A DNA stretch of 64,000 nucleotides from the human T2T-CHM13v2.0 reference genome, Homo sapiens. The notes below the pieces were generated by a model. That model was given only the letters and a program-made list of their open reading frames with translations, had not been told where the DNA came from and did no database searches. The translations under genes were made by a program, and so were the position numbers. Below, one piece after another: positions 1,603 to 64,000 of the stretch (positions are counted from its first letter, which is position 1; each line of letters begins with the position of its first letter). Where the stretch lies: the NCBI RefSeq assembly GCF_009914755.1, contig NC_060947.1, one strand, 5' to 3'.

Positions 1603-2940
<1,338 letters not shown>

Positions 2941-21690: not shown

Positions 21691-23519
<1,829 letters not shown>

Positions 23520-23632
23520 CTAAAAAATGAACCAATTGAAATAATAACTATAACTTTACAAAACATAATACAAAAAGATAGAAAAGAAACAACAAAAAGT
23601 TAAAAAGCATGGGGATTAAGTTAAAGTGTAGA

Positions 23633-23977
23633 GTTTTTTATTTTACTTTAAGTTCTGGGATACATATGCAGAATGTGAAGGTTTGTTTCATAGTTATACA
23701 TGTGCCATGATGGTTTGCTGCACCCATCAACCCATCATCTAGGTTTCAAGCCCCACATGCATTAGGTATTCAACCTAATGCTCTCCCTCCCCTTGCCCTC
23801 CACCCCTCGACAGGCCCCGGTGAATGATGTTCCCCTCCTTGTGTCCATGTATTCTCATTTTTCAACTCCCACTTATGAGTGAGAACATGTGGTGTTTGGT
23901 TTTCTGTTCCTGTGTTAGTTTGCTGAGAATGATGGCTTTCAACTTCATCCGTCTCCCTGCAAAGGACATGAACTCAT
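23633..23977 (-). mobile_element. L1PA (about PA7/8) 3'UTR fragment
   Basis: tactttaagttctgggatacatatgcagaatg...caaaggacatgaactca. Confidence 0.88.
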
Positions 23978-25769: not shown

Positions 25770-26096
25770 GTGGTTTTGTGTGTGTGTTGTTTTTGTTTGT
25801 TTGTTTGTTTGTTTTGAGACGCAGTCTTGCTCTGTCACCCATGCTGGAGTGCAATGGTGCGATCTCAGCTCACTGCAACATCTGCCTCCCAGGTCAAGCG
25901 ATTGTACTGCCTCAGCCTCCCCAGTAGCTGGAATTACAGGTGCACACCACCATGCCCAGCGAATTTTTCTATTTTTAGTAAAGACAGTGTTTTGCCATGT
26001 TGGCCAGGCTGGTTTCGAACTCTGACCTCTCAGCTGATCCCCCACCTAGGCCTCCCAAAGTGCTGGGATTATGGGAGTGATCCACTGCACCCGGCA
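25770..26096 (-). mobile_element. AluS SINE with (TTTG)n tail
   Basis: Antisense Alu flanked by ggccagtgtt / ggccagtatt. Confidence 0.9.
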
Positions 26097-35790: not shown

Positions 35791-38700
35791 GAGGATCCAG
35801 GATGGCTGATTGTAAACAGCTGTGGTACGTGGCCCTCAGGGAAAGGAATAAAAGGAGTGAGTGAATTTAGCACCTTCAACTGATATATCCGAGTTCTTGC
35901 ATTGGGACTGACTAGGCAAACAGCTCGACCCATGGAGAGCAAAGAGAAGCAGGGTGGGGTGATGGTCCACCCAGGAGCAGCATAGAGCCAAGGGAACCCT
36001 CAACCCCAGCCAAGGGAAGTGGTGAGTAACTGAGCGATCCCACCCGAGAAACCACACTTCTCCCATGGATCTTTGCAACCCACAGATCAGGAGATCCCCT
36101 TGTGAGCCCACACAACCAGTGCCTTGGGTCCAATACATGGAGCTGTGCAGAGTCTTGCCAAAATGGCCAGTCGGGCACACAGAGAAACCCAAAAGTTTTG
36201 CATACACCAGCCCCAGGATCCATGACAATGTGGGAGATCTATCCATGCATGTTCCCGGGAAGGGGTCTAGATCTAGGGAGCCAAGTGACATTGTTCTTCG
36301 GTCACCTCATGAGTTGAGACTCACTGGCTTGGAATTCCAGCCAGTCGGTGGCAGCAGGCTGGAATCTGCCTGAGTTGGGACCAGGTTCCTGGGGGGAAGG
36401 GCAGTCGCCATCTCTGCAGTTCAGTAGACTCAGTCGTTTCAGCCCACCTGCTTTGAAGAATACAGGAAGTCTAGACAAAGAGGTGTCCCCCCAGCACAGC
36501 ACAGCTGCCTTGCCAGATTGTGGCTAGACTGCTTCTTTAAACGGGACCCTAATCCATCCCTCCCCAGTGGGCGAGACCTCCCTGCAGGGGCTTCAGCCAC
36601 TCTAGCAAGGGTTCTAGAGACAGAACTCTGAGCTCTAGTGAAGAGGAGCAGCCACAACTCTGTGGTTCAGTAGACTCAGCCATTTCAGTCTGCCAGCTTT
36701 GGAAAATACACACGGTCTGGATGAGGAACGGTCCCACCCAATGCAATGCATCTGCTCTACCAAAGGGCAGCCAGACTGCTTCTTTGGAGAGGTTCCTGAT
36801 TCTGTTTCTCCTGGCTGGGTAAGACCTACCAGCAGGGGTCTCCAGCACATTCTACAGGAGAGTTCAGGCCAGGAACAGGTCAGTTATCCTCTAGGTTTGA
36901 GCTGCCAGAAGAAGAAGCAGGCTGCTATCTTTGCTGTTATCTTTGCCTTCACTGGTGATAGCAAGCTGTTATGTTTGCATTCACTGGTGATACCTCTGGG
37001 TATGAGAAACACTGAAGCAAGTAGGGTCTGAAGCAGACCTCAAGCAAACCACAGCAGCCTTATGGAAGAGGGGCCTGACTGCTAAAAGAAAACCAAACAA
37101 ATAGAAAACAACAACTGCAACAACATCAACAAAAAAGACCTCACAAAAACCTCATTCAAAGGTCAGCAACCTCAAGGATCAAAGGTAGAGAAGCCTACAA
37201 ATATGAGAATCAATGCAAAAAAGCTGAAAGTGCAAAAAGCCAGAGGGCCTCTTCTCCTCCAAATGACTGCAACACCTCTCTAGCAAGGGCACAGAACTGG
37301 GCTCAGGCTGAGATAGCTGAATTGAAAGAAGTAAGCTTCAGAAAGTGGGTAATAATAAATTTTGCTGAGCTAAAGGAGCATGTTGTAATCCAGTGCAAAG
37401 AAGCTAAGAATCATAATAAAACAATGCCAGAATGGATAGTCAGAATAGCCAATATAGAGAGGAACATAACTGACCCGGTGGAGCTGAAAAACACATCACG
37501 AGAACTTGACAATGCAATCACAAGTATTATTAGCAGAACAGACCAAGTGGAGATAAGAATCTTAGAGCTTGAAGACTATCTTTCTGAAATAAGGCAGGCA
37601 AACAAAGAATACAGTAAAAAGAATAAAAAGGAATGAACAAAACCTCCGAGAATTATGGGATTATGTAAAGAGACTGAACCTACAACTGATTGGAGTACCT
37701 AAAACAGATGAGGAGAATGGAACTAAGTTGAAAAACATACTTTAGGATTTCATCCTGGAGAAATTCCCCAACCTAGCAAGACAGGCCAACATTCAAATTC
37801 AGGAAATGCAGAGAACACCACTAAGATACTCCACGAGAAAATCAGCTGCAAGACTCATAATAATCAGATTCTCCAAGGTCGAAATGTAAGTAAAAATGTT
37901 AAGCCAGAGAGAAAGGCCAGGTCACCTAAAAAGGGAAGCCCATCAGACTAACAGAGGATCTCTCAGTGGAAACCCTACAAGTCAGAAGAAATTGGGGGCC
38001 AATATTTAACATTCTTAAAGAAAAGAATTTTCAACCCAGAATTTGACATCCTGCCAAACTAAGCCTCATAAGTGAAGGAGAAATGAGATTATTTTCAGAC
38101 AAGCAAATGCTGAGGGAATTTATCACCACCAGGCCTGCCTTGCAAGTGTTCCTGAATGAACCACTAAATATTGAAAGAAAAATATCATTACCAGCCACAA
38201 CATAAACATGCTGAAGTATACAGACCAGTGATACTATGAAGCAACCACATAAACAAGTCTGCAAAATAATTGGCTAACATCATGATGACAGGATTACATT
38301 CACACATAACAATACTAACCTTAAATGTAAACGGGCTAAATGCCCCAATAAAAAGACAAAGGATGGCAAGCTGAATAAAGACACACATAGGCTCAAAATA
38401 AAGGGATGGAGAAAAATTTACCAAGAAAATGGAAAACAGAAAAAAGCAGGGGCCACAATCCTAGTTTCTGAACAAAATTCTTCAAACCAACAAAGGTCAA
38501 AAATGACAAAGAAGGGCATTATATAATGGTAACAAGTTCAATTCAACAAGAAGAGCTAACGATCCTAAATATATATGTACCCAATACAGGAGCACTCAGA
38601 TTAATAAACCAAGTTCTTAGAGACCTAGAAAGAGACTTAGATTTCCACAAAATAATAGTGGGAGACGTCAACATTCCACTGTCAGTAAGAGACAGATCAT

Positions 38701-39682
38701 CATGACAGAAAATTAACAAAGATATTCAGGACCTGAACGCAGCTCTGGATCAAGTGGACCTGATAAATATCTACATAACTCTCCACCCCAAAACAACAGA
38801 ATACATATTATTCTCATCACCACATGGCACTAATTCTAAAATTGACCACATAATTGGAAGTAAAACACTCCTTAGCAAATGCAAAAGAATGGAAATCATA
38901 ACAAACTCTTTATCAGACCACAGCACAATCAAATTAGAACTCAAGATTAAGAAACTCACTCAAAACCACTAATCTACATGGAAATTAAGCAACCTGCTTC
39001 TGATTGACTCCTGGGTAAATAATAAAAATCAAAAAGTTCTTTGAAACCAATGAGAACAAAGAGACAACATACCAGAATCTCTGGAATGCAGCTAATGCAG
39101 TGTTAAGAGGAAAATTTATAGCACTAAATGCCCACATCAAAAAGCTAGAAAGATCTCAAGTTAACAGCCTGACATAACAACTAAAAGAAATAGAGTACCT
39201 AGAGCAAACACACCCCAAAGCTAGCAGAAGACAAGAAATAACCAAGATCAGAGTGGAACTGAAGAAGATAGAGACATAAAAACCCCTTCAAAAAATCAAC
39301 AAATACAGGAGTTTTTTAAAAAATTAATAAAATAGATAGACCACTAGCTAGACTAATAAAGAAGAAAAGAGAAAAATCAAACAAAAACCATCAGAAATGA
39401 TAAGGGGTTTATCACCACTGACCCTGCAGAAATACTAACAACCACCTGAAAATACTATAAAAACCTCTATGCACATAAACTAGAAAATCTGGAAAAAAAA
39501 TCATTAAATTCCTGGACTCATACACCCTCCCAAGACTAAATCAGAGATAAATTGAATCCCTGAATAGACAAATAACTAGTTCTGAAATTGAGGCAGTAAT
39601 AAATAGCCTACCAACCAAAAAAAGCCCAGGACCAACAGATTCATAGCTGAATTGTACCAGAGGTACAAAGAAGAGCTGGTAC

Positions 39683-40399
39683 TGAGAGACAGGACTAGCT
39701 AGATTTCCTAGGCCAACTAAGAATTCGTATGCCTTGCTGGAAAAGGTGACCACACCTACCTTTAAGCATGGGGCCTGTAACTCAGCTCACACCCAACCCG
39801 TCAGGTAGTAAAGAGGTCTCACTAAAATACAAATTAGGCCAATGCACGAGGTAAAGAAATAGTCAAATCATATATCACCTGAGAGCACAGGGGGAGGGAC
39901 AATGATCGGAATATAAACTCAGGCATTGGACCAGGGAGGAGCAACCCCCTTTTGGTCCCTTCCCATTTTATGGGAGCTCTCTTCACTCTATTTAAATCCT
40001 GCAACTGCACACTCTTCTGGTCCGTGTTTTTTTATGGGTCGAGCTGAGCTTTCACTCACCATCCACCACTGCTGTTTGCTGCCATCACAGACCCACGGCT
40101 GACTTCCACCCCTCCAGATCCAGCAGGGTGTCCACTGCACTTCTGATCCAGCCAGACAGTGCCCATTGCTGCTCCCAATTGGGCTAGAGGCTCGCCATTG
40201 TTCCTGAGCAGGCTAAGTGCCTGGGGTTCATCCTAATCGAGCTGAATAGAGCTGTAACATTCACCGCATGGCCCAAGATTCCATTCCTTGGAATCCATAA
40301 GGCCAAGAACCCCGGGTTAGAGAACAAGAGGCTTGCTGCCATCTTGGAAGCAGCCCACCACCATCTTGGGAGCTCTAAGAACAAGGACCCCTGGTAACA
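39683..40399 (+). mobile_element. LTR17 (HERV-W/HERV17) solo LTR
   Basis: tgagagacaggactagctagatttcctaggcc...aagaacaaggacccctggtaaca with a 4-bp TSD GTAC on both sides. Confidence 0.92.
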
Positions 40400-41225
40400 G
40401 TACCATTTCTACTGAAACTATTCCAAAAATTTGAAGAGGAACAACTCCCTAACTCATTCTATGAGGCCAGCATCAGCCTGATATGAAAACTTGGCATAGA
40501 TACAACAAAAAAAGGAAACTTCAGGCCAATATCCTTGATGCATATCAATGCAAAAATCCTCAGTAAAATATTGGCAAACTGAATCCAGTAGCACATCAAG
40601 GAGCTTATTCACGACCATCAAGTTGGCTTCATCCCGGGATGCAAGACTGGTTCAACATACACAAATCAATAAGCACAATTCATCACATAAGCAGAACTAA
40701 AGACAAGACCACCTGATTATCTCAATAGATGCAGAAAAAGCTTTCAATAAAATTCAACCTCCTTTCATGTTAAAAACTCTCAACAAACTAGGTATTGATG
40801 GAAATATATCTCAAAATCATAAGAACTATTTATGACAAATCCACAGCCAATATCATACTGAATGGGCAAAAGCTGGAAGCATTCTCCTTGAAAACCAGCA
40901 GAAGAGAAGGATGTCCTCTCTCACCACTCCTACTCAACATAGTATTGGAAGTTCTGGCCAAAGCAATCAGGGAAGAGAAAAGAATAAGGGGTATTCAAAT
41001 AAGAAGAGAGGAAGTCAAATTGCCTTTCTTTGCAGACGACATGATCCTATATCTAGAAAAACCCATCATCTCATCCTGAAAGATTCTTAAGCTGATAAGC
41101 ATCTTCAGGATACAAAATAAATGTGCAAAATTCACTAGCATTCTTATACATCAACAATAGGCAAGCAGACAACCAAATCCTAAATGAACTATCATTCACA
41201 ATTGCTACAAAAAGAATAAAATACC

Positions 41226-44353: not shown

Positions 44354-44635
44354 TATATATTTATACATAATAAAATTCAAAAATTATCCCAGAACAGTAT
44401 TTCTAAAGGTTGCCAAATAATTCACCTGCCAAAGATCCATATCTTATCATTTATTTACTCACTGTCTTATCACACATTTAGCTCTTCGTATTTCATTACC
44501 ATTAATAAAGTACAATGACTATCATCTTTGTACATAATGATTTGGGAATGTACGTTAGTTGGTAAGATTATACAATAAGGATATCAATTTTGTATCATGT
44601 ATATTGTAAAGTTTTCCAACTTTATCATTGTCTGT

Positions 44636-44951
44636 TTATTTATTTATTTATTTATTTATTTATATTTTTGAGACGGAGTCTTGCTATGTCACCCAGACTG
44701 GAGAGAAGTGGCGCGATCTCGGCTCACTGCAAGCTCTGCCTCCTGGGTTCACGCCATTCTGCTGCCTCAGCCTCCCCAGCAGCTGGGACTACAGGCGCAC
44801 ACCGTCAAGCCCGGCTATTTTTTTTGTATTTTTAGTAGAGACGGGGTTTCACCGTGTTAGCCAGGATGGTCTCGTTCTCCTGACCTCATGATCCGCTCGC
44901 CTCGGCCTCCCAAAGTGCTGGGATTACAGGCGTGAGCCACCGCCCCGGGCT
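44636..44951 (-). mobile_element. AluY SINE with (TTTA)n tail
   Basis: gcaagctctgcctcctgggttcacgccattc; caccgtgttagccaggatggtctcg. Confidence 0.92.
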
Positions 44952-45193
44952 GATTGTCTTTTTAAAATAAAACTTACCGAAAAGGTAATATATTTCATGT
45001 ATCAAAAACCAAATAGAAGAAGCATAAAGTATCTATTCCAGCTTAATCTCCCATCTCCCCAGTTCCCACCTTCTCCACCCACACAGTTAACTATTTTTAT
45101 TCATTTCTTCTGTAAACTTTGTGTGTGTTTACATAAGGAGATAGCCCCCACCCACTTTTTCATATAATTTGTAGCATACAATATACACTTTTT

Positions 45194-45521
<328 letters not shown>

Positions 45522-48877: not shown

Positions 48878-50097
48878 GAGGTGTGTTGTGGGGAAAATGG
48901 AGTGACTTCAAACCTGACCCAATAGCTATACTGCAGGTTCAGTAAATAGATGCTACCAAGGGACAGATTTCACACCAAAGTTCAGGAAAAATTTCAGAGT
49001 AAAATCAGTTTTATGTGGAATTAGATGGTTATAGATCTATAAACCAGAAGAAGATAATCTGAATTTCAGCTGGAGGAAATTTTGGACAAAAGCCTGGATC
49101 TGTTTAAGGGCACGGTCCTTGCACTGTTTGACCTCTAGGGAGAAATACAACTGAATTTGTACAAATGATGGGTGCACCAGGTAGCAGATGAGAGTGTTTT
49201 GACAAAGTGAGCTACTTAACCATGTATGGGAGTGCTAATGCATCTCTCTCTTAAGTATGTGTGAAAGCCCTAATGAAACTTCAATAAATACTCCTGAGAC
49301 TTCATTGGGAGAATAGAGATGGAGGTCTTGAAATATTGCATGGGAGTGAAATAAGAGAGATATTACATTTTCAGGGACCTCTCCAAAATTCCAATAATAT
49401 AAACTTTTATGTTTAACTTATGGGTTTAATTAATCTCCACATCTCAAATATCATTAATTCTGGAATAGAGCAAGGCATGTCACTTTACAGTTAATACAAA
49501 AGTGCCTGTCAAATCACATCAAATAGAAAATCCCAAATTATTGTGTCTCAGTGATATTCAGCATTGTTATGACATACAATAATCCCTCAGGCTACTTAGG
49601 TAGTCCTTTCACCAGAAATACATATCACAAGCATGTCCTTGTGGATCTTATTTAGTGTGGCTGCCATTAGTTTTGTGTCCAACACATAAAACCTATGTGT
49701 GACCTTTCCAGCCTAGATGAATAGAACACTTACTGACATATTGCTGATCTGCTTGACTTCTATGAAAGGCCTTCTTGGGAGACTCTGGAGTTTTTAGTTG
49801 AGCTGTTCTACACATGGGCCTGGGTTTTGCCCATGTTCACCTCAGCTTTCCTCTAAGCAGAACATAATGATCACAGTTTCCACATAGGGAATACCCTGGG
49901 GAAGGAACACATCTTCTAGGACCTGGGACTCAGGATACTGAGACAGACTCTTCACTCAGATGCCTAGAACATAGGAGATGGCAAACTTAACAGGCTGAAA
50001 TAAGGCAGCCTACATTTTTTGGTATAACCTCGTTCTTCATCTGTTAAAACTTCTTTAGGCTGCAGTGACCAAATGTATGGTCATTGACCTGCAGGCC

Positions 50098-50397
50098 TGT
50101 ATTAGACAGTTCAGGCTGCTATAACAAAGCAAAGTGGGTGGTTTATAAGAAACAGACATTTATTTCTCACAGTTCTGGAGGCTAGAAGTCCAAGACCAGT
50201 GTTTTGATGAAGATCCTCTTTCAGGTTGCAGAGTGCTGATTTCTCATTGTATACTCACATGGTTGAAAGAGAGAGAGCATGCCACCCTCATGACCTAAAT
50301 TTACCTCCCAAAGACTCCACCTACAAATGCCGTTAGACTGAGAATTAGATTTTAGCATATAAATGTTGATGGAATATAAAAATTCAGTCCAAAACAA
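50098..50397 (-). mobile_element. MLT1-type MaLR LTR, internally deleted
   Basis: tgtattag...atttatttctcacagttctggaggctagaagtccaagacc...aaaattcagtcc. Confidence 0.75.
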
Positions 50398-51589
50398 AAC
50401 CTCCCCAAAGTATTGCTGCTGAGTCACTTAGAAAACCTTTGTCTGAGTTCACCTTTTTTATTCTTTTTGCAAACTGGGTAGTAATTTGGAATGTTGTAGA
50501 GAGATGCATATTAGTTCTTGCCCAGAGCTAAGGTGTGAGATGGATCGCCCAAACTAAAAGAAGAATTTAGAATAAAAGCAAGATGCTCAAGTACTTCAAG
50601 TTCATGAGCCACATATTTCAGAAGAAAAATTGCAAGGTAATTCCAATACAAAGTGAAATCTACACCACATGTGAATCAGGAGACATGCAGCTAAATTCCA
50701 GAACGAGTTTAATGATGATGGAGGGCAAGGCAAAGATAAGCTGTACCTTGACTGATTAGGCTGATAAATCAGGCTTGTCTTGAATAACAAAGCTAAAGGA
50801 CAGAAAATGAGAAAGAAACATACCTGAAGTGATTTAAAGCCAGGATGTGATATAAAACTATTTACATACACGTATTGCTAAACTGAATAGGAGACACTTC
50901 CCAGGTAGTAAAAGGGTGGAGAAGAAAGTATTTATAAGTCAAATGACCTCTTTGTTTTTGATACAGTAGTTGGTGCCTACTAGGACTTGCTCTGGATATA
51001 AATAAATAAGAAGGCAAAAATTGAGAGGGTTGAGTCAAGCTGATCAGGCTAGAGAAAGATGCAAGAAAAGTTTCACAGATTCTCATTAATACAAGACATG
51101 TAAGATGAAAATAAACAAAGATAATCATTTTTGTGAAAAGACTCAGTAGATAACCTCACAGCTTCTTTTTCCGGCAGAGAATATGGATGTGCTAGGATTG
51201 AAGGCACTTGTCATCACCAATCTAATGGGCTCAACTGGGACAAGTGATTGCATTTTTCTTCTCAAATGGTGGGCTACATAACAAGAATTTAGCATTAGAC
51301 AGGTATGCCAGTGTTGCTGCTAGTGGAAAGTGCACCAATATACATGCTACTCCAGGATAAGGTTGGCAGATATGCTTTGGTCAAACACTGGCATGCACAA
51401 GGGACGAACAAACAAACGTAGACAGCCGTCATATCTTGCCATCAAGAACAAGATTTAAGAAAAGACCTGTGGCCGTGGTCATGTATGATGTAGCTCAATC
51501 ACCCCAGAAACAGAAGATGTTATTAAAAGTATAAGCTGATTCCAGTTTGGCTCTGGCAGAGTGAGGGCAGAAGAGAGGACAACATGTTG

Positions 51590-52270
51590 GAGGGGAAGCC
51601 AGAGAGTTAACCAGAGATTAAATCCTGTTGGCTCTTACCGGACAAGGACTGGGCTTTTACTCTGAGTGAGATCAGAAGCCATTGCTGGGCTGGGACCGGA
51701 GGAGATACACAGCTCACAAAACACATCAATACAGAGAATTCAAACTTCTGAAAAACATATTGGATGAAGAAATGAAGTCCAAATTAAAATGAGGAAGTCC
51801 AGTCAGATGACGAACTTGAACACAAAGAGCAAGCCATTGAGCACTAGTTGGCCACAGATGTGGATTTAAGTTTTCTAGCTGCCAAAATGTAAAGAGGGAA
51901 ACACGATCCTCTGCAGGACTCAACAGTATCCCTGAGATCGAATCTGACAAACTGCTCAGAAGGGGCACCTATGCTTTTCCCTGAGATGAATGTCTCCCAT
52001 CGTCAGATGTCAGATTCTGGATCTATTTTGACAAGAGAGCTCAAAGGATTTCTTCACAGATGGAAATGAGGGGTGAGTAAAACAGTGGCGTGAAGGATCA
52101 CCCTCAAGTCTATAGCATGAACAATTGGAAGGATAAGAGTGGCCTTAACTGTGAGGGGTGGGGCGAGGGGGGACGCTGCAGTGGGAGGAGGTTTCTAGGG
52201 GAAGATGGGAGAGTTCCATTTTTGACTTGTTAATTTGGGTTGACTCTCAGGCAATTTTCTCAGCGAATTA
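51590..52270 (-). mobile_element. L2 fragments (mirrored at about 61500-62180)
   Basis: gggcttttactctgagtgagatcagaagccattg; ggatctattttga...gagttccatttttgacttgttaatttg. Confidence 0.6.
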
Positions 52271-53557
52271 GAAAGGAAGGTCAGAGGCTGAATGTGAGGA
52301 GTCGGGAGGCAGTGTTGGAGGCTTGCAGAGAGAAAATAAGTTGTGAAATAGAAGGGTGAACGGAGACGAAGGCTTGAGAGAAATGAGTAGTTGGAAGATT
52401 TGGACTACAAACCTGGCAGAAAGATGTTTTGGTTTAAATGGATAGGGACCCTGGGTGTTTCCAGATCAGACAATGTTCATTCTTTATGATCCAGCCAGAA
52501 AACTGTGGCTTTTGCTAGCCTTTCCCACCTCTGAACACAGGTTTCCCCTTGCTGGTGAGGGTGGCGTGGAGAGATCCGAGTGAGGAAATAAGTTGTCAGT
52601 GTTTACGCTTATTTCTTCAGTCATGCTGAAGAGGCGGATAGGCCTAATACATAATAGGATAGAACACAATCCACCCGGACTTCCGCCTTATGCACAACTG
52701 CACTTTCAGTTTTGCTCAGAGAGATAGAGCTCACACAATTAGGTAATTGGGCCCAAATCTGAAAGTGAGAAACAGGCCAGAAAGGACACTCAGAGGATGA
52801 AAAGGGAAACCAGTAAGCCCCACTGTTTTATACACCGTTGTCATCATGGTTTTAACTTCATGCTGAGACATAGAATTCCTTAAACTATCACAGCCCTGGT
52901 CACTTGTGCCAATTCTACAAGGCCTCCAAAACCGCATAGGAGATACTGCACCGTGGGCCCATTCCAAACACTTATTCAGAATTAAAATTCCACTGGCTTT
53001 CCATTGATAGCACTAGAGGTCTGTCTGTGACACGCTGCTCCATTACAGCAAAGCAAAGCCCCATAATGACCTAATCCAGAAGGATAAGATCCCAGGACCC
53101 ATAGAACAAGGAGGCCAGAGGGAAGGCAGGCCACAAAGAAGAAGGAAACCAGACTTCCCCATCCCTCTGGGCTCCTGGGGGGGTCAGTGGAAAAAGGCCT
53201 TTAACCTAAGTGCTCAAGGCCCTAACCTAACAGCTTTTGTTTTTCACGCTGGAGCGCTGGCACTTCCTGACCCCGCTTAGTCCTTCTATTAGAATTTTGT
53301 ACTCTGATGCTAGTTTTCAGAGTATAGGAGCAACTGCAGGGAATGAAGCAGCAGACCTATCAATATTTTGTGGTGATCTAAGTCTCTGTTAATAAGCCTG
53401 AGACAAGGCAAAACCAGGAAGAAGCCTTGACCCTTATCAAGGTCATCAAAGCCATACAGGACCCTTCCTAATGTCTTCAACTGTCATTTTTGAAAGAAGC
53501 CGAGTCTGACCACCAAGTATAAATGGGTATAACATCCACCGCATTTCTTTGTCATAT

Positions 53558-54076
53558 TGTTACAGGAAAGGGGTCTTGATCCAGACCCCAAGAGAGGGTT
53601 CTTGGATCTCGCGCAAGAAATAATTCAGGGCGAGTTCACAGTGCAAAGCAAAAGCAAGTTTATTGAGAAAGCACAGTGGTGAAAGGGCAGCTACTCCATA
53701 GACAGAGTAGGACGTTCCCAAAAGTAAGAGGAGGAATGCGTCCACCCTAGGTACAATGCTTGTTATATGAGGAGATGTGCTCTGCTACAAGGGTTTGTGA
53801 TAGAGGATTAATTTTCTTAATTACTATGTTTTGCAAGAATCAGTGTTGTTATCTTTAAGGCAAAATTAGGAATGCCTTTCTTCTCCAGATATCGGAATAT
53901 CTGGACACTCCCAAGTCTGGGTCTGTTTAGTAAACGTTATTAATTTGTTCCCTTAACCGTAAACATCTAGAGGCTGGGAATACCTAACTTTCTGGGAATG
54001 CAGCCCAGCAAGCCTCAGCTTCATTTTCCTAGCCCTCACTCGGAATGGAGTCGCTCTGGTTCAAACGCCTCTGACA
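53558..54076 (-). mobile_element. MER41-family (ERV1) solo LTR, left-arm copy
   Basis: Reverse complement of 59698-60216; TSD ATAT. Confidence 0.85.
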
Positions 54077-54084
54077 ATATCACC

Positions 54085-54235
54085 CCGTTTTATTTTCTAT
54101 CACTTACCACTATCTGAAATTAAGTAGATAATTTGTTTACTCTCTGTCCCCACCCACTAGAATGAGAACGCGGCCCTTGCATCCTTACGTGTGTCTGGCA
54201 TATAAGGGGTGCTCAATGATTATTTGTTTCATGGA
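54085..54235 (+). mobile_element. L2 3' end (mirrored at about 59540-59690)
   Basis: cacttaccactatctgaaat...cactagaatg...gtctggcatataaggggtgctcaatgattatttgtt. Confidence 0.6.
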
Positions 54236-54339
54236 GGAACAGATTTATGGATGGCTGGGTGGATGACGATCTTAGAAGGGGTTCCAGGGCTAGCTGGCTT
54301 TCTGTTTCTCCCACTCAAGCACCCAAGCCCTGACCCACA

Positions 54340-55100
54340 AAGTAAAGGAACAGGCGAAACTTCTCGCCAAATAGCTTCAAGGCAGAAACTACGCAGCTGG
54401 CTTGGGAATTCCGTACAACGCGAACGCGCATGCACAGGCAGGACTGAGCGTGTCCATCTTCGCATTACTCCCGGAGATGACTCTCGGAAACGGTCCGAGG
54501 ACTAACGTCTTTCTCTTCCTCGCCCTCATTCCTCCCAGTAACGTCCGCTACAAAAGAAACCGTGCACAAAATAAACTCGGGCGGCGGGTAGAAAGGAGAC
54601 AGCCGAATTCCCTACACCCATGATCAACACGCCCACACCTCCCATCAGGCACGGCGCTCCCGCCTCCCCGAAGAGGCGGTGGAAAGTGGTGGTGGGGGGG
54701 GTGCTGGGGGAGGGCTGGCGGGGGGAGGGCCGGGGGAAGGAGCGGGGCGGGAACGTCCTTTTGCTACTGCTATGGCTTCCGGGGCAGCACTTCGGCAGAC
54801 CGCCCGCCTCCCAGTTGCAAATCGACTTCCGGGGCACCCCCACCGGCTGCCCGGTGGGTTCTCTGCTCGAACTTCTGGCGCTTTTCCCTTCCCGTTTATC
54901 TTGTTCAGGTCCCTCAGTGGACTGCTCCAGATCTAAAGAGCAGAAATTGGGCCGCAAAGAGAACGTCCTCCCAGACTTTCTCCGTCGCGGTGAAATTATG
55001 CCCGTTTGGTGGCAGTATGTATTCACAGATGCGTGCAGCTCTGCTCTTACCCCGCCCTTCGCGTTTAGAAAAAAAGCGCCGTTCCTCAGAGTCAAAACAA
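54340..55100. promoter_or_regulatory. CpG island / promoter-like element, left-arm copy
   Basis: GC- and CpG-rich against an AT-rich background. Contains ACTTCCGG (ETS), CGCGCATGCACA (NRF1-like), TCTCGCCAAA (E2F-like), GC boxes and G-runs. Confidence 0.8.
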
Positions 55101-55295
55101 AGTTTCTTTCCGCTGTAGAGGCACAGCTTTTAGGGTGGCCTACTAACTCCCGCTTTTTCTTTTCTGAAATCTCTGTGCCAATCTGATGGACAGAAGAGCG
55201 ACAAAAAATATTTTTAACGTGAGATTCTTTGTTGACTAGCCTGCTTGTAAACTTTCTGACATATGCCTTTTTTTTTTTTTTTTTTTCCATAGGGC

Positions 55296-55495
55296 TGTGA
55301 ACCCCTGATATCTGAGAGGTGTCTCAGTCAATTTAGAAAGTTTATTTTGCCAACGTTAAGGACCCGCCCATGACAGCCTCAGGAGGTCCTGACGACATGT
55401 GCCCAAGGTGGTCAGGGCACAGCCTGCTTCCATACATTTTAGTGAGACATGAAACATCAATCATTTTATGTAAGATGTAAAGTGGTTCGGTCGGG
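55296..55495 (-). mobile_element. MER4-type LTR 3' portion, left-arm copy
   Basis: tgtgaacccctgatatctgagaggtgtctcagtcaatttagaaagtttattttgcc...cacagcctg. Confidence 0.8.
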
Positions 55496-56493
55496 GAAGG
55501 ATCTTGTGCTGTGAGAGGATTTGACCTTGGCGTGTGTAATGGTAGATGAGAGCTACAAAATTACAAGTGGCTGAAGACAGTTTACAGGAAATGGTCATAG
55601 CTGCCCCCCTCTTTTTTCCCCTCTTAGGAAGTTATTGTTTAGGATCCGAATTCTAATTTGGAGATGCATTCTACAGTGTCTTCTCCATTGCTTTTCCTCC
55701 CCAAATTAATCTTGTTGTTTTGTGTGTGCATCTGCGTGAAGAGCTGTACTGTTGTTTTCATAGATACATGAGAGACTGTTTCCTGACCTCCAAAGGGAAA
55801 GGGCATTTTGCTCTTCCCAGCAGAAAGGCACCCCTGGGTGACTTGGAGCCCAGTGGGAGTGTCTGGGGGTGTTGACCCCCGTGACAACCAGCAGCCCTAC
55901 AGGGAACCTACAACAAAATAGTTTTAAAAAGCTCATCCAGGAAATGCCTATTAGAGCTGATCACTTTGCTTTGACCCTCCCATAGGTGCTAGACCTCCAG
56001 AGAGAGAAAATGAGACACATAAGGTGGAAATTACTCTGTGGTGACACACTGTGGAGTCCTGCCCACAACCCGGATACTTGGACCCACTCCACTGAAACCT
56101 TAGGCCACAGCTAAGTTCCTTCCTTCAAAAAATAAATCTAAGAAAGAGGAAAAACAGGAATGACCTCCTTTCAGGCACTCTGTTGGTTTTATGGCGCCTC
56201 TTCTTGCGAATGTTTGTGTAAAATTGACATACTGTGGTCCTTTTCTGCACAATTACGGCAAGGAAAATTCAGATCGCAAAGGTCCACCTGTGAGTATAAA
56301 GTTCCTAAGTTCTCTGTGTATGGCTCTGCTTTCTTTTTTGCCTGCATTAAGTCTGCTGTTACATTTCTACTGAGATAAAATCCACCATTTGCATCCATCC
56401 ATTTCATTTTGTTATTGTTTTTGTAAACCAATGAGTTTGTATTAATATCTCATGACTAGAGTTCTGAAGTAAAAGCTATAGGATTTTTGGTTG

Positions 56494-57184
56494 TGTGGCA
56501 GGGCAGGTCTCACAGCTGAACAGGGAGGCCTCCTTAACAACTGTTTCAGCACTGACTGGTTAAATATTAAAAGCTGAAAGAGCCAGTGCCCTTATACAAA
56601 GGCTGGGATTTAACAAAAGCCCACCAAGAGTTTTGCCTATGTCCTCCTGGGCCTTGAAGCATGACAAGATAAAGGAATTCTTAACAGGACCCCTTTGGGA
56701 TTAAACAAGTTTTTATTGGAGGTCTGAAGAAACTCCCCAGACCTCCACAAACAAGTTTTACTGGTGGTCTAAAGGAACTTCTAAAACCTCTATGGATTTA
56801 CAGCAGACAAGATAAGGGTAATCACCCCAAGCACCTGGACCCATCTAGATTAAGTAAATTTACTGAGGCTCCAGAGGAAGGTCTTCAAAACTGAGAACTT
56901 AGTTGTAGATTAAAAGAAGTTAATAACTTATGTCTTTAGATGAATGCAAAGTTATATGTAAACATATAGCTTAAAAGGTATATAAGCTTTGGAAAACTTT
57001 GTAATTTTGAGTTGGTCTGACGACAGTCTCTCCACAGGGAGAAGGCCTCGAAAATATTGGCAGACCAAGTAAAAATTACAAAGTTTTCTGAGCTTATATA
57101 AACTCTCTTCTTTCCCAGTTCATCTGCATCTCATTACCGGGTAGCAGGAATAAGTAGGCTGACCCTCAGTTTGGACCGGGAACA
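56494..57184 (+). mobile_element. MER39-like solo LTR
   Basis: tgtggcagggcaggtctcac...gagccagtgcccttatacaaaggctggg...ccctcagtttggaccgggaaca; imperfect TSD GTTG/GCTG. Confidence 0.8.
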
Positions 57185-57436
57185 GCTGTGTAAGTGTGTA
57201 TGTGTGTGTTTATATGTATGTACACGTATTTTGTTGTGTTTTGGGCCACAAGGTACCACACTGGCTTAACAAGTACTCATAAATTAATTAGCCCAAATGC
57301 TTTTCATCTTTATATGACTTAAGTAAAATCTGTCATATGCTTGCTTAAAAATTATTGGTAAACTAATAACAGAAATTTCTTAAAAATTGCCAGCATACAT
57401 TTTTGCATTTATTAATCAAGCAATTTCATACTTATC

Positions 57437-57823
57437 AAAATGTGGCACATATACACCATGGAATACCATGCAACCATAAAAAATGATGAGTTCATGTCCT
57501 TTGTAGGGACATGGATGAAATTGGAAATCATCATTCTCAGTAAACTATCGCAAGGACAAAAAACCAAACACCGCATGTTCTCACTCATAGATGGGAATTG
57601 AACAATGAGAACACATGGACACAGGAAGGGGAACATCACACTCTGGGGACTGTTGTGGGGTGGGGGAAGGGGGGAGGGGGGAGGGACAGCATTAGGAGAT
57701 ATACCTAATGCTAAATGACGAGTTAATGGGTGCAGCACACCAGCATGGCACATGTATACACATATGTAACTAACCTGCACATTGTGCACATGTACCCTGA
57801 ACCTTTAATAATTAAAAAAAAAA
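57437..57823 (+). mobile_element. 5'-truncated L1PA2/3 3' end
   Basis: aaaatgtggcacatatacaccatggaata...ctaatgctaaatgacgagttaatgggtgcagcacacc followed by an A tail. Confidence 0.92.
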
Positions 57824-58195
57824 TTTGGCATGCGGGTTACAAAACTATAAATCCGGCAAAAACAGAATTTTTGCTTGTATAATTTTTGATAAAAAAATTA
57901 ATATTGGATTAATGAAAATCGCTAAATATCCAATTATTCAGTAAAATAACCATATATTTAATCTTAAGGCTTTTACTTAGGTAAACACCTGAAATTCACA
58001 GGCTATAAAATGGTTGAAAAGGAAATAAAATGACTATCGCAGTTTCATAAATAATCTAGGTAAACTATTAGAAAAAGTAGGTAAATGTAATGAGATAAAT
58101 GCTTTTAGACAAAACTTGTTATAATTTAGATTCTGAAGTTATAGTAAGATAAGTTATGACATTAACTGGGTATTTTTCAATTTAAAAAATATGGA

Positions 58196-58479
58196 AAGCT
58201 AATCAGAAACTCGAATGCAACCAGTGTGTCTTTATCTACCTATGACCTTCCTAGTCACCTCACCAATTCAAGTTGTCCCACCTTTAGAGACCGAACCAGT
58301 ATACATCTTACATATTGATGTTTCATGTCTCCCTAAAATGTATGGAAGCAGGCTGTGCCCTGACCACCTTGGGCACGTGTCGTCAGGACCTCCTCAGGCT
58401 GTCATGGGCGCGTCCTTAACGTTGGCAAAATAAACTTTCTAAATTGACTGAGACACCTCTCAGATATCAGGGGTTCACA
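58196..58479 (+). mobile_element. MER4-type LTR 3' portion, right copy
   Basis: Ends ggcaaAATAAActttctaaattgactgagacacctctcagatatcaggggttcaca. Confidence 0.8.
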
Positions 58480-58673
58480 GCCCTATGGAAAAAAAAAAAA
58501 AAAAAAGGCATATGTCAGAAAGTTTACAAGCAGGCTAGTCAACAAAGAATCTCACGTTAAAAATATTTTTTGTCGCTCTTCTGTCCATCAGATTGGCACA
58601 GAGATTTCAGAAAAGAAAAAGCGGGAGTTAGTAGGCCACCCTAAAAGCTGTGCCTCTACAGCGGAAAGAAACT

Positions 58674-59434
58674 TTGTTTTGACTCTGAGGAACGGCGCTT
58701 TTTTTCTAAACGCGAAGGGCGGGGTAAGAGCAGAGCTGCACGCATCTGTGAATACATACTGCCACCAAACGGGCATAATTTCACCGCGACGGAGAAAATC
58801 TGGGAGGACGTTCTCTTTGCGGCCCAATTTCTGCTCTTTAGATCTGGAGCAGTCCACTGAGGGACCTGAACAAGATAAACGGGAAGGGAAAAGCGCCAGA
58901 AGTTCGAGCAGAGAACCCACCGGGCAGCCGGTGGGGGTGCCCCGGAAGTCGATTTGCAACTGGGAGGCGGGCGGTCTGCCGAAGTGCTGCCCCGGAAGCC
59001 ATAGCAGTAGCAGAAGGACGTTCCCGCCCCGCTCCTTCCCCCGGCCCTCCCCCCGCCAGCCCTCCCCCAGCACCCCCCCCACCACCACTTTCCACCGCCT
59101 CTTCGGGGAGGCGGGAGCGCCGTGCCTGATGGGAGGTGTGGGCGTGTTGATCATGGGTGTAGGGAATTCGGCTGTCTCCTTTCTACCCGCCGCCCGAGTT
59201 TATTTTGTGCACGGTTTCTTTTGTAGCGGACGTTACTGGGAGGAATGAGGGCGAGGAAGAGAAAGACGTTAGTCCTCGGACCGTTTCCGAGAGTCATCTC
59301 CGGGAGTAATGCGAAGATGGACACGCTCAGTCCTGCCTGTGCATGCGCGTTCGCGTTGTACGGAATTCCCAAGCCAGCTGCGTAGTTTCTGCCTTGAAGC
59401 TATTTGGCGAGAAGTTTCGCCTGTTCCTTTACTT
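58674..59434. promoter_or_regulatory. CpG island / promoter-like element, right-arm copy
   Basis: Mirror of 54340-55100: CCGGAAGT at about 58942, CCGGAAGC at about 58992, TGTGCATGCGCG at about 59338 and TTTGGCGAGA at about 59403. Confidence 0.8.
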
Positions 59435-59697
59435 TGTGGGTCAGGGCTTGGGTGCTTGAGTGGGAGAAACAGAAAGCCAGCTAGCCCTGGAACCCCTTCT
59501 AAGATCGTCATCCACCCAGCCATCCATAAATCTGTTCCTCCATGAAACAAATAATCATTGAGCACCCCTTATATGCCAGACACACGTAAGGATGCAAGGG
59601 CCGCGTTCTCATTCTAGTGGGTGGGGACAGAGAGTAAACAAATTATCTACTTAATTTCAGATAGTGGTAAGTGATAGAAAATAAAACGGGGTGATAT

Positions 59698-60216
59698 TGT
59701 CAGAGGCGTTTGAACCAGAGCGACTCCATTCCGAGTGAGGGCTAGGAAAATGAAGCTGAGGCTTGCTGGGCTGCATTCCCAGAAAGTTAGGTATTCCCAG
59801 CCTCTAGATGTTTACGGTTAAGGGAACAAATTAATAACGTTTACTAAACAGACCCAGACTTGGGAGTGTCCAGATATTCCGATATCTGGAGAAGAAAGGC
59901 ATTCCTAATTTTGCCTTAAAGATAACAACACTGATTCTTGCAAAACATAGTAATTAAGAAAATTAATCCTCTATCACAAACCCTTGTAGCAGAGCACATC
60001 TCCTCATATAACAAGCATTGTACCTAGGGTGGACGCATTCCTCCTCTTACTTTTGGGAACGTCCTACTCTGTCTATGGAGTAGCTGCCCTTTCACCACTG
60101 TGCTTTCTCAATAAACTTGCTTTTGCTTTGCACTGTGAACTCGCCCTGAATTATTTCTTGCGCGAGATCCAAGAACCCTCTCTTGGGGTCTGGATCAAGA
60201 CCCCTTTCCTGTAACA
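59698..60216 (+). mobile_element. MER41-family (MER41C/D-like) solo LTR, right-arm copy
   Basis: tgtcagaggcgtttgaaccagagcgactcc...gagatccaagaaccctctcttggggtctggatcaagacccctttcctgtaaca; TSD ATAT at 59694-59697 and 60217-60220. Confidence 0.85.
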
Positions 60217-62683
60217 ATATGACAAAGAAATGCGGTGGATGTTATACCCATTTATATTTGGTGGTCAGACTCGGCTTCTTTCAAAAATGACAGTTGAAGA
60301 CATTAGGAAGGGTCCTGTATGGCTTTGATGACCTTGATAAGGGTCAAGGCTTCTTCCTGGTTTTGCCTTGTCTCAGGCTTATTAACAGAGACTTAGATCA
60401 CCACAAAATATTGATAGGTCTGCTGCTTCATTCCCTGCAGTTGCTCCTATACTCTGAAAACTAGCATCAGAGTACAAAATTCTAATAGAAGGACTAAGCG
60501 GGGTCAGGAAGTGCCAGCGCTCCAGCGTGAAAAACAAAAGCTGTTAGGTTAGGGCCTTGAGCACTTAGGTTAAAGGCCTTTTTCCACTGACCCCCCCAGG
60601 AGCCCAGAGGGATGGGGAAGTCTGGTTTCCTTCTTCTTTGTGGCCTGCCTTCCCTCTGGCCTCCTTGTTCTATGGGTCCTGGGATCTTATCCTTCTGGAT
60701 TAGGTCATTATGGGGCTTTGCTTTGCTGTAATGGAGCAGCGTGTCACAGACAGACCTCTAGTGCTATCAATGGAAAGCCAGTGGAATTTTAATTCTGAAT
60801 AAGTGTTTGGAATGGGCCCACGGTGCAGTATCTCCTATGCGGTTTTGGAGGCCTTGTAGAATTGGCACAAGTGACCAGGGCTGTGATAGTTTAAGGAATT
60901 CTATGTCTCAGCATGAAGTTAAAACCATGATGACAACGGTGTATAAAACAGTGGGGCTTACTGGTTTCCCTTTTCATCCTCTGAGTGTCCTTTCTGGCCT
61001 GTTTCTCACTTTCAGATTTGGGCCCAATTACCTAATTGTGTGAGCTCTATCTCTCTGAGCAAAACTGAAAGTGCAGTTGTGCATAAGGCGGAAGTCCGGG
61101 TGGATTGTGTTCTATCCTATTATGTATTAGGCCTATCCGCCTCTTCAGCATGACTGAAGAAATAAGCGTAAACACTGACAACTTATTTCCTCACTCGGAT
61201 CTCTCCACGCCACCCTCACCAGCAAGGGGAAACCTGTGTTCAGAGGTGGGAAAGGCTAGCAAAAGCCACAGTTTTCTGGCTGGATCATAAAGAATGAACA
61301 TTGTCTGATCTGGAAACACCCAGGGTCCCTATCCATTTAAACCAAAACATCTTTCTGCCAGGTTTGTAGTCCAAATCTTCCAACTACTCATTTCTCTCAA
61401 GCCTTCGTCTCCGTTCACCCTTCTATTTCACAACTTATTTTCTCTCTGCAAGCCTCCAACACTGCCTCCCGACTCCTCACATTCAGCCTCTGACCTTCCT
61501 TTCTAATTCGCTGAGAAAATTGCCTGAGAGTCAACCCAAATTAACAAGTCAAAAATGGAACTCTCCCATCTTCCCCTAGAAACCTCCTCCCACTGCAGCG
61601 TCCCCCCTCGCCCCACCCCTCACAGTTAAGGCCACTCTTATCCTTCCAATTGTTCATGCTATAGACTTGAGGGTGATCCTTCACGCCACTGTTTTACTCA
61701 CCCCTCATTTCCATCTGTGAAGAAATCCTTTGAGCTCTCTTGTCAAAATAGATCCAGAATCTGACATCTGACGATGGGAGACATTCATCTCAGGGAAAAG
61801 CATAGGTGCCCCTTCTGAGCAGTTTGTCAGATTCGATCTCAGGGATACTGTTGAGTCCTGCAGAGGATCGTGTTTCCCTCTTTACATTTTGGCAGCTAGA
61901 AAACTTAAATCCACATCTGTGGCCAACTAGTGCTCAATGGCTTGCTCTTTGTGTTCAAGTTCGTCATCTGACTGGACTTCCTCATTTTAATTTGGACTTC
62001 ATTTCTTCATCCAATATGTTTTTCAGAAGTTTGAATTCTCTGTATTGATGTGTTTTGTGAGCTGTGTATCTCCTCCGGTCCCAGCCCAGCAATGGCTTCT
62101 GATCTCACTCAGAGTAAAAGCCCAGTCCTTGTCCGGTAAGAGCCAACAGGATTTAATCTCTGGTTAACTCTCTGGCTTCCCCTCCAACATGTTGTCCTCT
62201 CTTCTGCCCTCACTCTGCCAGAGCCAAACTGGAATCAGCTTATACTTTTAATAACATCTTCTGTTTCTGGGGTGATTGAGCTACATCATACATGACCACG
62301 GCCACAGGTCTTTTCTTAAATCTTGTTCTTGATGGCAAGATATGACGGCTGTCTACGTTTGTTTGTTCGTCCCTTGTGCATGCCAGTGTTTGACCAAAGC
62401 ATATCTGCCAACCTTATCCTGGAGTAGCATGTATATTGGTGCACTTTCCACTAGCAGCAACACTGGCATACCTGTCTAATGCTAAATTCTTGTTATGTAG
62501 CCCACCATTTGAGAAGAAAAATGCAATCACTTGTCCCAGTTGAGCCCATTAGATTGGTGATGACAAGTGCCTTTCATCTTAGCATATTTATATTGCCTGC
62601 TGGAAAAAAAAATGTGTTAAACTACCTACCGGTAGCCATTCATCTCTGCTTTTCTCTTTGCATCTGATTCCAACACACTTTCA

Positions 62684-63419
62684 TGTTACATGTAGTTAGA
62701 CACACATGAGAGGGGCAGGAGAGTCCTTTTCCCCAACACCCACCGGGAATGTCACGTGATCGGGTGATGGTTCAACAATTATCACATTGCCTGTCTAAAA
62801 ATGGTACTTTGGCACCTGGAGTCAGGGAGAGATAATCTCCTGCTCATCTACAGCTGTTAACATTAACGTGGTTAACTGAATGCCAGGTAGAAACAAAAAG
62901 AGCTTCCAATAAAATCAAGTATTGTGGGACTGAGCTCAAGCATTGTGGGAGTGAGCTCAAGCATGTGAATTAAGACACAAAATGACGGAGTATGACCTTC
63001 CTATTGACACTTCACCAGAAAAGTGAAGAAAGCCTCAGGCGGGAATCCATACAACTTCCTAAACCCACTGTGCATGCTCACCTCCCAAGGGTAAGGAGGG
63101 TACTGTGCATGGGGCAGCACAGTACCCATGGGAAGAATCATGGGAAATGAGCCAGTCTATGAAGTTCCAGGATCAAGGTTAAACACCACACTTGAGCTTC
63201 ATATGCCCGCTTGGGCCTCTTCCAAGTGTACTTTCTTTTATGTTCTAAACGCTTTTTAAATAAATTTCCACTCCTGCTCTGAAACTTGCCTCGGTCTCTT
63301 TTTCTGCCTTCTGCCTCTCAGTGGAATTCTTTCTTCTGAGAAGGCAAGAATTAAGGTTGCTGCAGACCCGTGTCTGGATTCGCTGCTGGTGGTAGCTCAG
63401 ATACCTTACCCCGGTCACA
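62684..63419 (+). mobile_element. MER50-like solo LTR
   Basis: TG...CA ends with TSD TTCA; catgagaggggcaggagag; gaggcaagaatt-like 3' region followed by gttgctgcagacccg. Confidence 0.75.
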
Positions 63420-63593
63420 TTCACAGTCCCTTTCTCCCGACTAACCCGTTTTGACTGTTTACTCCCTATTTGTAATATCTCCAGCAACCTAATCTGGGTT
63501 TTAGAAATGGAGTATTAAATATACCAATGGCTATATTTTCAGGGGCATTGTGACATTTCTAAGACATCACTATCTTGAAAAATCCAGCCTATT

Positions 63594-64000
63594 GACACCA
63601 CACGTCTACAACTATCTGATCTTCGACAAACCTGACAAAAACAAGCTATGAGGAAACAATTCCCTATTTAATAAATAAAAATAAAAAGGAATAAAAAGCG
63701 TTTAGAACAAAAATCTAGGAAAACTGGCTAGCCATATGCAGAAAACAGAAACTGGACCCCTTCCTTATACCTTACACAAAAATTAACTCAAGATGGATTA
63801 AACCCTTAAAGGTAAAAGTTAAAACCATAAAAACCCTAGAAACATACCTAGGCAATACCATTCAGGACACAGGCAAGGGCAAATACTTTATGACTAAAAT
63901 GCCAAAAGCAATTGCAACAAAAGCCAAAATTGACAAATGGAATATAATTAAACTAAACAACTTCTGCACAGCAAAAGAAACTGCCATCAGAGTGCACAGG
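63594..64000 (+). mobile_element. L1PA ORF2 fragment running off the window end
   Basis: tacaactatctgatcttcgacaaacctgacaaaaacaagc; aactggacccc; aggcaataccattcaggaca. Confidence 0.9.

What the first reader, a model, noticed from the sequence alone, without database searches (positions are those of the whole stretch)
51140..51200. Diverged homology beyond the outer arm edge suggests an old palindrome maintained by gene conversion
Outside the identical block, left TTTTTCCGGCAGAGAATATGGATGTGCTAGGATTG|AAGGCAC still aligns to the reverse complement of 62574-62610 (TTTTTCCAGCAGGCAATATAAATATGCTAAGATGA|AAGGCAC) at about 70% identity. A recent duplication would end abruptly in unrelated sequence. A step from about 100% to about 70% implies an ancient duplication whose core is continually homogenised.
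Basis: partly seen in the sequence, partly recalled or inferred. Interest (0 to 1): 0.7.

Follow-up and report, generated by a model that had tools for sequence, protein, structure and literature searches.

The report
Old X inverted repeat, frayed edge
Two nearly identical 4.3-kb mirror-image copies on the human X chromosome, already known to flip the DNA between them (inversion HsInv0403), end in a 38-base stretch that is only 74% alike; this is likely a leftover of a duplication tens of millions of years old whose core is likely kept identical by gene conversion, an ordinary process for X-chromosome repeats.

Summary
Beyond the 99.9% identical core, 51163-51200 matches the reverse complement of 62574-62611 at 28 of 38 bases (0 of 200,000 null draws); 8 of 10 differences are transitions. 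Nothing further aligns, even with the flanking LTR removed. No third copy or repeat was found at the edge. The locus is the catalogued inversion HsInv0403: arm sizes and three restriction-site contexts match. It is polymorphic in human, chimpanzee and gorilla, and a published table shows what is most likely its spacer in opposite orientations in rhesus and green monkey. So the repeat is likely at least 25 million years old, yet its core differs at 3 of 4,067 bases. An LTR inside the arms is the most GC-shifted of 21 copies; an LTR cut by the inner edge is GC-shifted inside the arm and AT-shifted in the spacer, as GC-biased conversion predicts. A sibling X repeat (HsInv0393) has a similar frayed edge, so the feature is not special. 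The step alone dates poorly (13-43% divergence). Known locus, known mechanism; the open point is an old palindrome with no annotated gene, only twin CpG islands.

The parts
51163..51200 (+). Outer diverged zone, left copy (38 bp, 74% to the right copy)
62574..62611 (-). Outer diverged zone, right copy
51201..55363 (+). Left arm, homogenised core (3 substitutions and one poly-T length difference)
58412..62573 (-). Right arm, homogenised core
55364..55492 (+). Inner graded zone, left (6 substitutions in 123 columns plus a 6-bp indel)
58289..58411 (-). Inner graded zone, right
55493..58288 (.). Spacer (2,796 bp), the segment that inverts (HsInv0403); holds the HindIII and KpnI assay sites at 56984 and 57252
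53558..54076 (.). Solo LTR relic with a 4-bp target duplication, identical in both arms (right copy about 59698-60216); GC-shifted. The name MER41C comes from the Aguado footnote; matching it to this element is from recall
58190..58487 (+). LTR relic cut by the inner arm edge: 58289-58487 is in the arm (copy at about 55288-55492), 58190-58288 in the spacer only. The name MER4A comes from the Aguado footnote; matching is from recall
54300..55150 (.). CpG island (GC 57%, CpG o/e 0.83), present in both arms (right copy about 58625-59475), no third copy found
51537..52149 (.). Two pieces of an old dispersed repeat inside the arm (L2 by recall and by the Aguado footnote); does not reach the edge zone
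62684..63419 (.).
57437..57819 (+). L1 3' fragment in the spacer, 383 bp, imperfect 11-bp target duplication (L1 by recall)

Best explanation
The 38-base zone is likely the unconverted outer end of an old inverted duplication (the repeat pair of inversion HsInv0403), whose 4.2-kb core is likely kept identical by repeated arm-to-arm gene conversion. Shown: the arms, the step, the locus identity, and the GC excess of arm-resident LTRs. Taken from papers: the spacer occurs in both orientations in humans, chimpanzees and gorillas. Inferred: the arms recombine with each other; non-crossovers copy one arm onto the other with a GC bias, and crossovers flip the spacer. Tracts rarely cover the last tens of bases next to unrelated flank, so mismatches built up there and then blocked further conversion, fixing the edge. 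The repeat is likely at least as old as the ape-Old World monkey split. The inner 200 bases overlap a simian-age LTR, so that edge was set or moved inward after the LTR inserted.
For: Step and its significance. 8 of 10 differences are transitions (p 0.003 against one third), which points to common descent rather than chance. Locus identity. Both orientations in chimpanzee and gorilla. Row chrX_inv66 of Table S7 in PMC11092980: human 0, chimpanzee 1, gorilla 0, orangutan 1, rhesus 1, green monkey 0; the other 5 of 11 species NA. The core has 3 differences in 4,067 bases against about 33 expected at 0.8% divergence; published human-chimpanzee X-arm divergence is 0.87%. The LTR in both arms has a net GC gain of +15.6 bases over 20 dispersed copies (0 of 20 as high, z 2.6) and +9.95 without CpG-prone columns (0 of 20, z 2.2). 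The LTR cut by the inner edge has +8.1 in the arm (0 of 28 as high) and -4.7 in the spacer (26 of 28 higher). The outer arm has GC 45.3% and CpG o/e 0.27 against 38.1% and 0.07 in the flank. The sibling X repeat has a comparable outer zone.
Against: No non-human sequence could be aligned here, so clustering of arms by species is untested. The zone is 38 bases. Against the 13.7% pairwise distance of dispersed LTR copies, 10 of 38 gives p 0.03, but 8 of 36 (dropping the two edge-defining mismatches) gives p 0.11, so an age older than the LTRs is not shown. The GC shift of the inner LTR weakens without CpG columns (4 of 28 as high, z 1.3), and that LTR lies beside a CpG island, so low methylation could explain part of it. 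The comparison copies were the best hits of about 3,100 candidates each, not a random sample. Matching chrX_inv66 to this spacer rests on its length (2,834 against 2,796) and a recalled hg38 position of PBDC1. Orientation in reference assemblies can be wrong between near-identical repeats. Rhesus was undetermined in the other study. Seven of nine strong/weak differences are GC on the left copy; this is not significant (p 0.18) but the model does not predict it.
Confidence: 0.72

Rival explanations
1. The duplication junction formed between two separate, older copies of one repeat family; the 38 bases are leftover similarity between those copies and say nothing about the age of the palindrome.
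For: This happens: the outer edge of the chr5 control repeat runs into about 170 bases of Alu-against-Alu similarity. The arms contain old repeats (L2, L4, MamGyp). A transition excess is expected here too. From recall, the zone looked like an L2 motif.
Against: Four genome searches covering the edge found only the two arms there (the last at E 10). nhmmer of both edges against 284 kb of held sequence gave no hit. A profile from 16 dispersed hits of the arm's old repeat matched 51647-52149 but not the zone, and direct alignments were reached by 94 and 47 of 1,000 nulls. These searches are weak for very old, short repeats.
Confidence: 0.1
2. The zone was copied with the arm but mutated in a burst at formation (error-prone synthesis or deamination of single-stranded DNA at the junction), so it was shut out of conversion from the start and its divergence is not a clock.
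For: 6 of 10 differences are left G against right A, within 28 bases; 7 of the 11 left-copy Gs differ. Clustered mutations near rearrangement junctions are established knowledge (recalled, not read here).
Against: The direction bias is not significant (6 of 7, p 0.125). By eye there is no clear sequence-context preference. The sibling X repeat's zone has mixed substitutions and gaps. This rival does not remove the need for conversion in the core.
Confidence: 0.1
3. The zone is what remains visible of a longer, much older homology, kept recognisable by selection on a splice acceptor (pyrimidine tract then CAG) used by a non-coding transcript entering the arm.
For: Both copies start with a pyrimidine tract followed by CAG, and a donor-like site lies near 51300 (print-out).
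Against: No gene is annotated in the window (hub table). No Rfam hit in 49000-64000. No transcript data were available here. 26% divergence is not what a constrained site shows.
Confidence: 0.05
4. A recent, human- or hominin-specific duplication with a chance or microhomeology match at its end, and no long-term conversion.
For: Arms are 99.9% identical in the core, which alone would fit a young copy.
Against: Both orientations occur in chimpanzees and gorillas. The zone is far beyond chance and transition-rich. The inner zone differs at 6 of 123 sites. Arm LTRs are GC-shifted.
Confidence: 0.03

Closest known systems
HsInv0403 (InvFEST; Aguado et al. 2014, PMC3961182; Giner-Delgado et al. 2019, PMC6748972)
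   Same: It is this locus: arms 4,331 and 4,323 bp, HindIII contexts at 46892 and 56984 (10.09 kb apart against 10.1 kb published), KpnI contexts at 23063 and 57252, 2,796-bp inverted region. Listed as recurrent, both orientations in human, chimpanzee and gorilla.
   Different: The passages and tables I read treat the inversion, not the age of the arms, the diverged edge or GC-biased conversion in the arms.
Large primate X palindromes P1-P26 (Jackson et al. 2021, PMC8327919 and PMC8981503)
   Same: Over 99% arm identity, GC-rich arms, spacer inversions, shifting inner boundary; gene conversion is the accepted mechanism.
   Different: Arms here are 4.3 kb, under their 8-kb cut-off. All 12 palindromes they found conserved to macaque hold a protein-coding gene; none is annotated here.
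FLNA-EMD inverted repeat (HsInv0389; Caceres et al. 2007, seen only as cited in PMC8327919 and PMC9731477)
   Same: Recurrent inversion flanked by homogenised inverted repeats on the X.
   Different: That one has repeats in 15 further mammals and genes in the spacer; depth beyond catarrhines is untested here.
HsInv0393 repeat (ARMCX6 region, X:100.04 Mb)
   Same: 4.7-kb arms at 99.6%, GC-rich arms (54.5% against 45-49% flank), a diverged outer zone of about 66-77 bases (0 of 1,500 nulls).
   Different: Its inner edge is abrupt, and it has a gene at the breakpoints.
Saccharomyces flip/flop region (Salzberg et al. 2022, PMC9731477)
   Same: [quoted passage not shown]
   Different: Yeast; the arms carry sporulation genes; shown by cross-species trees.

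Membership tests
HsInv0403 inverted repeats | Arm sizes 4,331 and 4,323 bp | tested here: met
   4,330 and 4,323 bp
HsInv0403 inverted repeats | Published restriction-site contexts and fragment length | tested here: met
   HindIII A and B/C and KpnI A and B/C contexts found; A to B is 10,092 bp. The D sites were not found in the window and were not looked for outside it
Large X palindromes (P1-P26) | Arms longer than 8 kb | tested here: not met
   4.3 kb (definition)
Large X palindromes (P1-P26) | Arm identity above 99% | tested here: met
   99.4% overall, 3 substitutions in 4,067 core bases
Conserved, gene-converted X palindromes | Within-species arm divergence below between-species divergence | not testable with these tools
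   No non-human primate genome is held; inferred from published orientation data only
Conserved, gene-converted X palindromes | GC excess in arms from GC-biased conversion | tested here: met
   45.3% against 38.1%; arm LTR highest of 21 copies with and without CpG columns; second LTR significant only with CpG columns
Conserved, gene-converted X palindromes | Protein-coding gene in arms or spacer | tested here: inconclusive
   None annotated (hub table). Six ATG ORFs of 68-254 aa overlap 50500-55600; they were not searched against protein databases
Conserved, gene-converted X palindromes | Spacer inverted between or within species | not testable with these tools
   Reported in print; one haplotype only in the window
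Repeat-mediated (Alu-Alu type) duplication junction | Both flanks lie in copies of one dispersed repeat at the junction | tested here: inconclusive
   No repeat found at the edge, but no Dfam library was on hand and very old repeats may be missed

The most novel reading that the evidence does not exclude
This is a pre-simian, perhaps early-placental, mini-palindrome with no protein-coding gene, kept for its twin CpG-island promoters. Conversion copied a whole 519-bp LTR insertion from one arm to the other and pushed the inner edge into a later LTR. The 26% divergence of the outer zone, about twice that between dispersed simian-age LTR copies, records the true age, and such frayed edges are a general single-genome clock for homogenised repeats.
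Probability: 0.25. Interest if true: 0.55.

Novelty: new member of a known kind. Interest (0 to 1): 0.25.

Why it matters
It adds a small, apparently gene-free case to the list of X inverted repeats that stay identical while flipping their spacer. Published work ties long-lived X palindromes to protein-coding genes (all 12 conserved ones in PMC8327919), so an old one with only duplicated CpG islands would test whether selection on proteins is needed or whether conversion, or a non-coding promoter, is enough. It also shows that 99.9% identity understates the age of such duplications, and that arm-resident repeats can reveal conversion from one genome. The locus and mechanism are known, and the frayed edge is shared with a sibling repeat, so the surprise is modest.

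Tried and rejected
Longer homology with the right-flank LTR removed: none. Chance: rejected. Third copy or paralogue of the edge, outer arm or CpG island: none found; nothing matched the PBDC1 side within 124 kb. Zone as an L2 piece, an idea from recall: not supported, though the profile was crude. Structured RNA: 0 Rfam hits in 49000-64000. APOBEC-like burst: direction bias not significant. Controls: two other repeats were examined, X:100.04 Mb and chr5:181.66 Mb. Both have a diverged zone at one edge or more, but the chr5 outer zone is two Alus and its inner zone is about 500 bases at 75-95%. Three further X repeats (HsInv0389, 0396, 0397) were planned and not examined. A GC test of the right-flank LTR as an outside control was not run. 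Caceres 2007 and a paper on the Xq28 haemophilia repeats (id from recall) were not held. The supplement of PMC7605249 could not be searched, and 6 of 18 supplements of PMC6748972 were not searched; they may hold macaque orientation or repeat data. Earlier scan findings were not available.

Full report
Observation. The window holds an inverted repeat with arms at 51163-55492 and 58289-62611, 99.4% identical over 4,330 columns, around a 2,796-base spacer. From 51201 to 55267 the arms differ at 3 of 4,067 bases. Just outside, 51163-51200 matches the reverse complement of 62574-62611 at 28 of 38 bases in register. The binomial p is 1.8e-9, and 0 of 200,000 random real-sequence partners reached the score in either direction; a gapped version gave 0 of 1,500. 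Eight of the ten differences are transitions (p 0.003 against one third). The similarity starts at 51163, not 51140: 51141-51160 matches at 3 of 20, and a gapped extension is marginal (54 of 1,500). Removing the right-flank LTR (62684-63419, 4-base target duplication) reveals nothing more: 86 of 300 nulls score as high. BLAST against 124 kb of contiguous sequence finds no flank-to-flank match.

Identity. This is HsInv0403. Table S1 of Aguado et al. 2014 (PMC3961182; I read passages, section 6 and that supplement) gives arms of 4,331 and 4,323 bp. Its HindIII contexts occur at 46892 and 56984, 10,092 bases apart against 10.1 kb published, and its KpnI contexts at 23063 and 57252. The paper reports both orientations in humans, chimpanzees and gorillas, and lists L2, L4, MER41C, MER4A and MamGyp pieces in the arms. 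Supplementary Data 6 of Giner-Delgado et al. 2019 (PMC6748972; supplements only) lists it as recurrent, O1+O2 in chimpanzee and gorilla, O1 in orangutan, undetermined in rhesus. Table S7 of PMC11092980 (passages and supplement rows) has chrX_inv66, hg38 76,146,128-76,148,962, 2,834 bp in human and 2,414 bp in rhesus. Its states are human 0, chimpanzee 1, gorilla 0, orangutan 1, rhesus 1, green monkey 0, and NA for the other 5 of 11 species, including both New World monkeys. I match this row to the spacer by its length and by a recalled hg38 position of PBDC1. The 383-base L1 piece in the human spacer would account for most of the length gap to rhesus. Opposite orientations in two Old World monkeys imply that the arms existed before the ape-monkey split; this is an inference.

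Is the zone a common repeat? Four genome searches covering the edge found only the two arms there. The tool warns that this does not prove rarity. An old repeat inside the arm (51537-52149; L2 by recall) was used to build a profile from 16 dispersed hits. It did not match the zone, and direct alignments of the two zone copies were reached by 94 and 47 of 1,000 nulls. No Dfam library was on hand, so this rival is lowered, not excluded.

Evidence for conversion from this genome alone. I compared LTR relics in the arms with dispersed copies, pair by pair. The solo LTR at 53558-54076 is identical in both arms and 10.8% from 20 dispersed copies, which are 11.2% from each other. It has a net gain of 15.6 G or C bases over them (dispersed mean 0, SD 6.1; 0 of 20 as high), and 9.95 when CpG-prone columns are left out (0 of 20). 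A second LTR relic (58190-58487) is cut by the inner edge: all 28 dispersed copies align on into the spacer on the right, while on the left 18 of 28 stop at about 55492-55500 and 10 run on only to 55519-55587. Its arm part gains 8.1 (0 of 28 as high) and its spacer part loses 4.7 (26 of 28 higher). Without CpG columns the arm part falls to +3.5 (4 of 28 as high), so this second test is weaker. The outer arm has GC 45.3% and CpG o/e 0.27 against 38.1% and 0.07 in an equal length of flank. This is the pattern Jackson et al. report for X palindromes (PMC8981503, passages). Caveats: the copies were the best hits of about 3,100 candidates each, and a CpG island lies between the two LTRs. With no conversion since the chimpanzee split, about 33 core differences are expected at 0.8% divergence; 3 are seen (0.87% published in PMC8327919).

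Dating. The zone's divergence is 26%, interval 13-43%. Dispersed copies of the second LTR differ by 13.7% (378 pairs). MER41 subtypes entered in a common ancestor of simians, dated there at 43 million years or more (PMC11905727, passages). Ten of 38 exceeds 13.7% at p 0.03, but 8 of 36, without the two mismatches that define the edge, gives p 0.11. So the zone fits an age near or beyond the LTRs, and does not prove an older one. The inner zone differs at 6 of 123 sites, far less than the outer (Fisher p 0.0005). The inner edge is therefore younger or still partly converted, in line with reports that inner boundaries move.

Controls. The HsInv0393 repeat (X:100.04 Mb, 4.7-kb arms, 99.6%) has a diverged outer zone of 66-77 bases (0 of 1,500 nulls) and an abrupt inner edge (462 of 1,500). 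A chr5 repeat (HsInv0278) has about 500 bases at 75-95% at its inner end and an outer zone that is Alu against Alu. So 2 of 2 controls examined have frayed edges, one of them partly for the rival's reason. Three more X repeats were not examined.

Mechanism. Shown: arms, step, locus, GC excess. From papers: recurrent flipping in apes. Inferred: the arms recombine; non-crossovers homogenise them with a GC bias and crossovers invert the spacer, as proposed for FLNA-EMD and the yeast flip/flop region (PMC9731477, passages). The terminal bases beside unrelated flank are rarely included in a tract, diverge, and then block conversion. I put this at 0.72. Rivals: two old repeat copies at the junction (0.10), a mutation burst at formation (0.10; 6 left-G/right-A changes, p 0.125), a selected splice acceptor (0.05), a recent duplication (0.03).

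Function. No gene is annotated and Rfam gives no hit. Each arm holds a CpG island with no third copy found; RefSeq lists enhancers at 55461-55995 and 58319-59137. All 12 X palindromes conserved to macaque in PMC8327919 contain a protein-coding gene; this one would be an exception, though its arms are under that study's 8-kb cut-off.

Novelty. HsInv0403 is named in 3 held papers, 2 listed (the 2026 preprint mentions it once). Searches for palindrome boundaries, duplicate edges and PBDC1 with inversion and passages of PMC8327919, PMC8981503, PMC3723533, PMC13629690 and preprint 10.1101/501981 showed no description of this edge or of conversion in these arms. Most subscription papers are not in the library, and some supplements could not be searched. 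Verdict: a real but ordinary feature of a known locus, a new member of a known kind. Interest 0.25.

Noticed in passing
window 54300-55150 and about 58625-59475: Identical CpG islands in both arms with no annotated gene and no third copy found; likely twin promoters (untested).
   Followed up: partly
window 51161-51176 and near 51300: Pyrimidine tract followed by CAG at the start of the diverged zone in both copies, and a donor-like site about 125 bases inside the arm; could be a non-coding exon.
   Followed up: no
window 51163-51200: Six of ten differences are left G against right A; 7 of 9 strong/weak differences are GC on the left; not significant.
   Followed up: yes
window 55493-58288: The spacer looks like internal sequence of an old endogenous retrovirus (from recall, not tested) with only part of one LTR; the duplication edge cuts that LTR.
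   Followed up: partly
window 57437-57819: 383-base L1 3' fragment with an imperfect 11-base target duplication; its size roughly equals the human-rhesus spacer length gap.
   Followed up: partly
window 56979-57100: 122-base imperfect self-inverted stretch (70%) in the spacer.
   Followed up: no
window 297-4472 with 37017-41225, and 7967-13449 with 19794-28721: Long, old inverted matches at 66-81% identity, probably separate L1 relics.
   Followed up: no
window 44501-45500: A second CpG-rich patch (o/e 0.85 and 0.53) about 6 kb left of the repeat.
   Followed up: no
L079:1585-1665 with L080 (X:100.04 Mb): The HsInv0393 repeat has its own diverged outer zone of 66-77 bases that ends at an AATAAA-like motif in both copies.
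   Followed up: partly
L081-L083 (chr5:181.655-181.665 Mb): The HsInv0278 repeat has a near-identical 2.3-kb core, a graded inner zone of about 500 bases and an Alu-against-Alu outer junction.
   Followed up: partly
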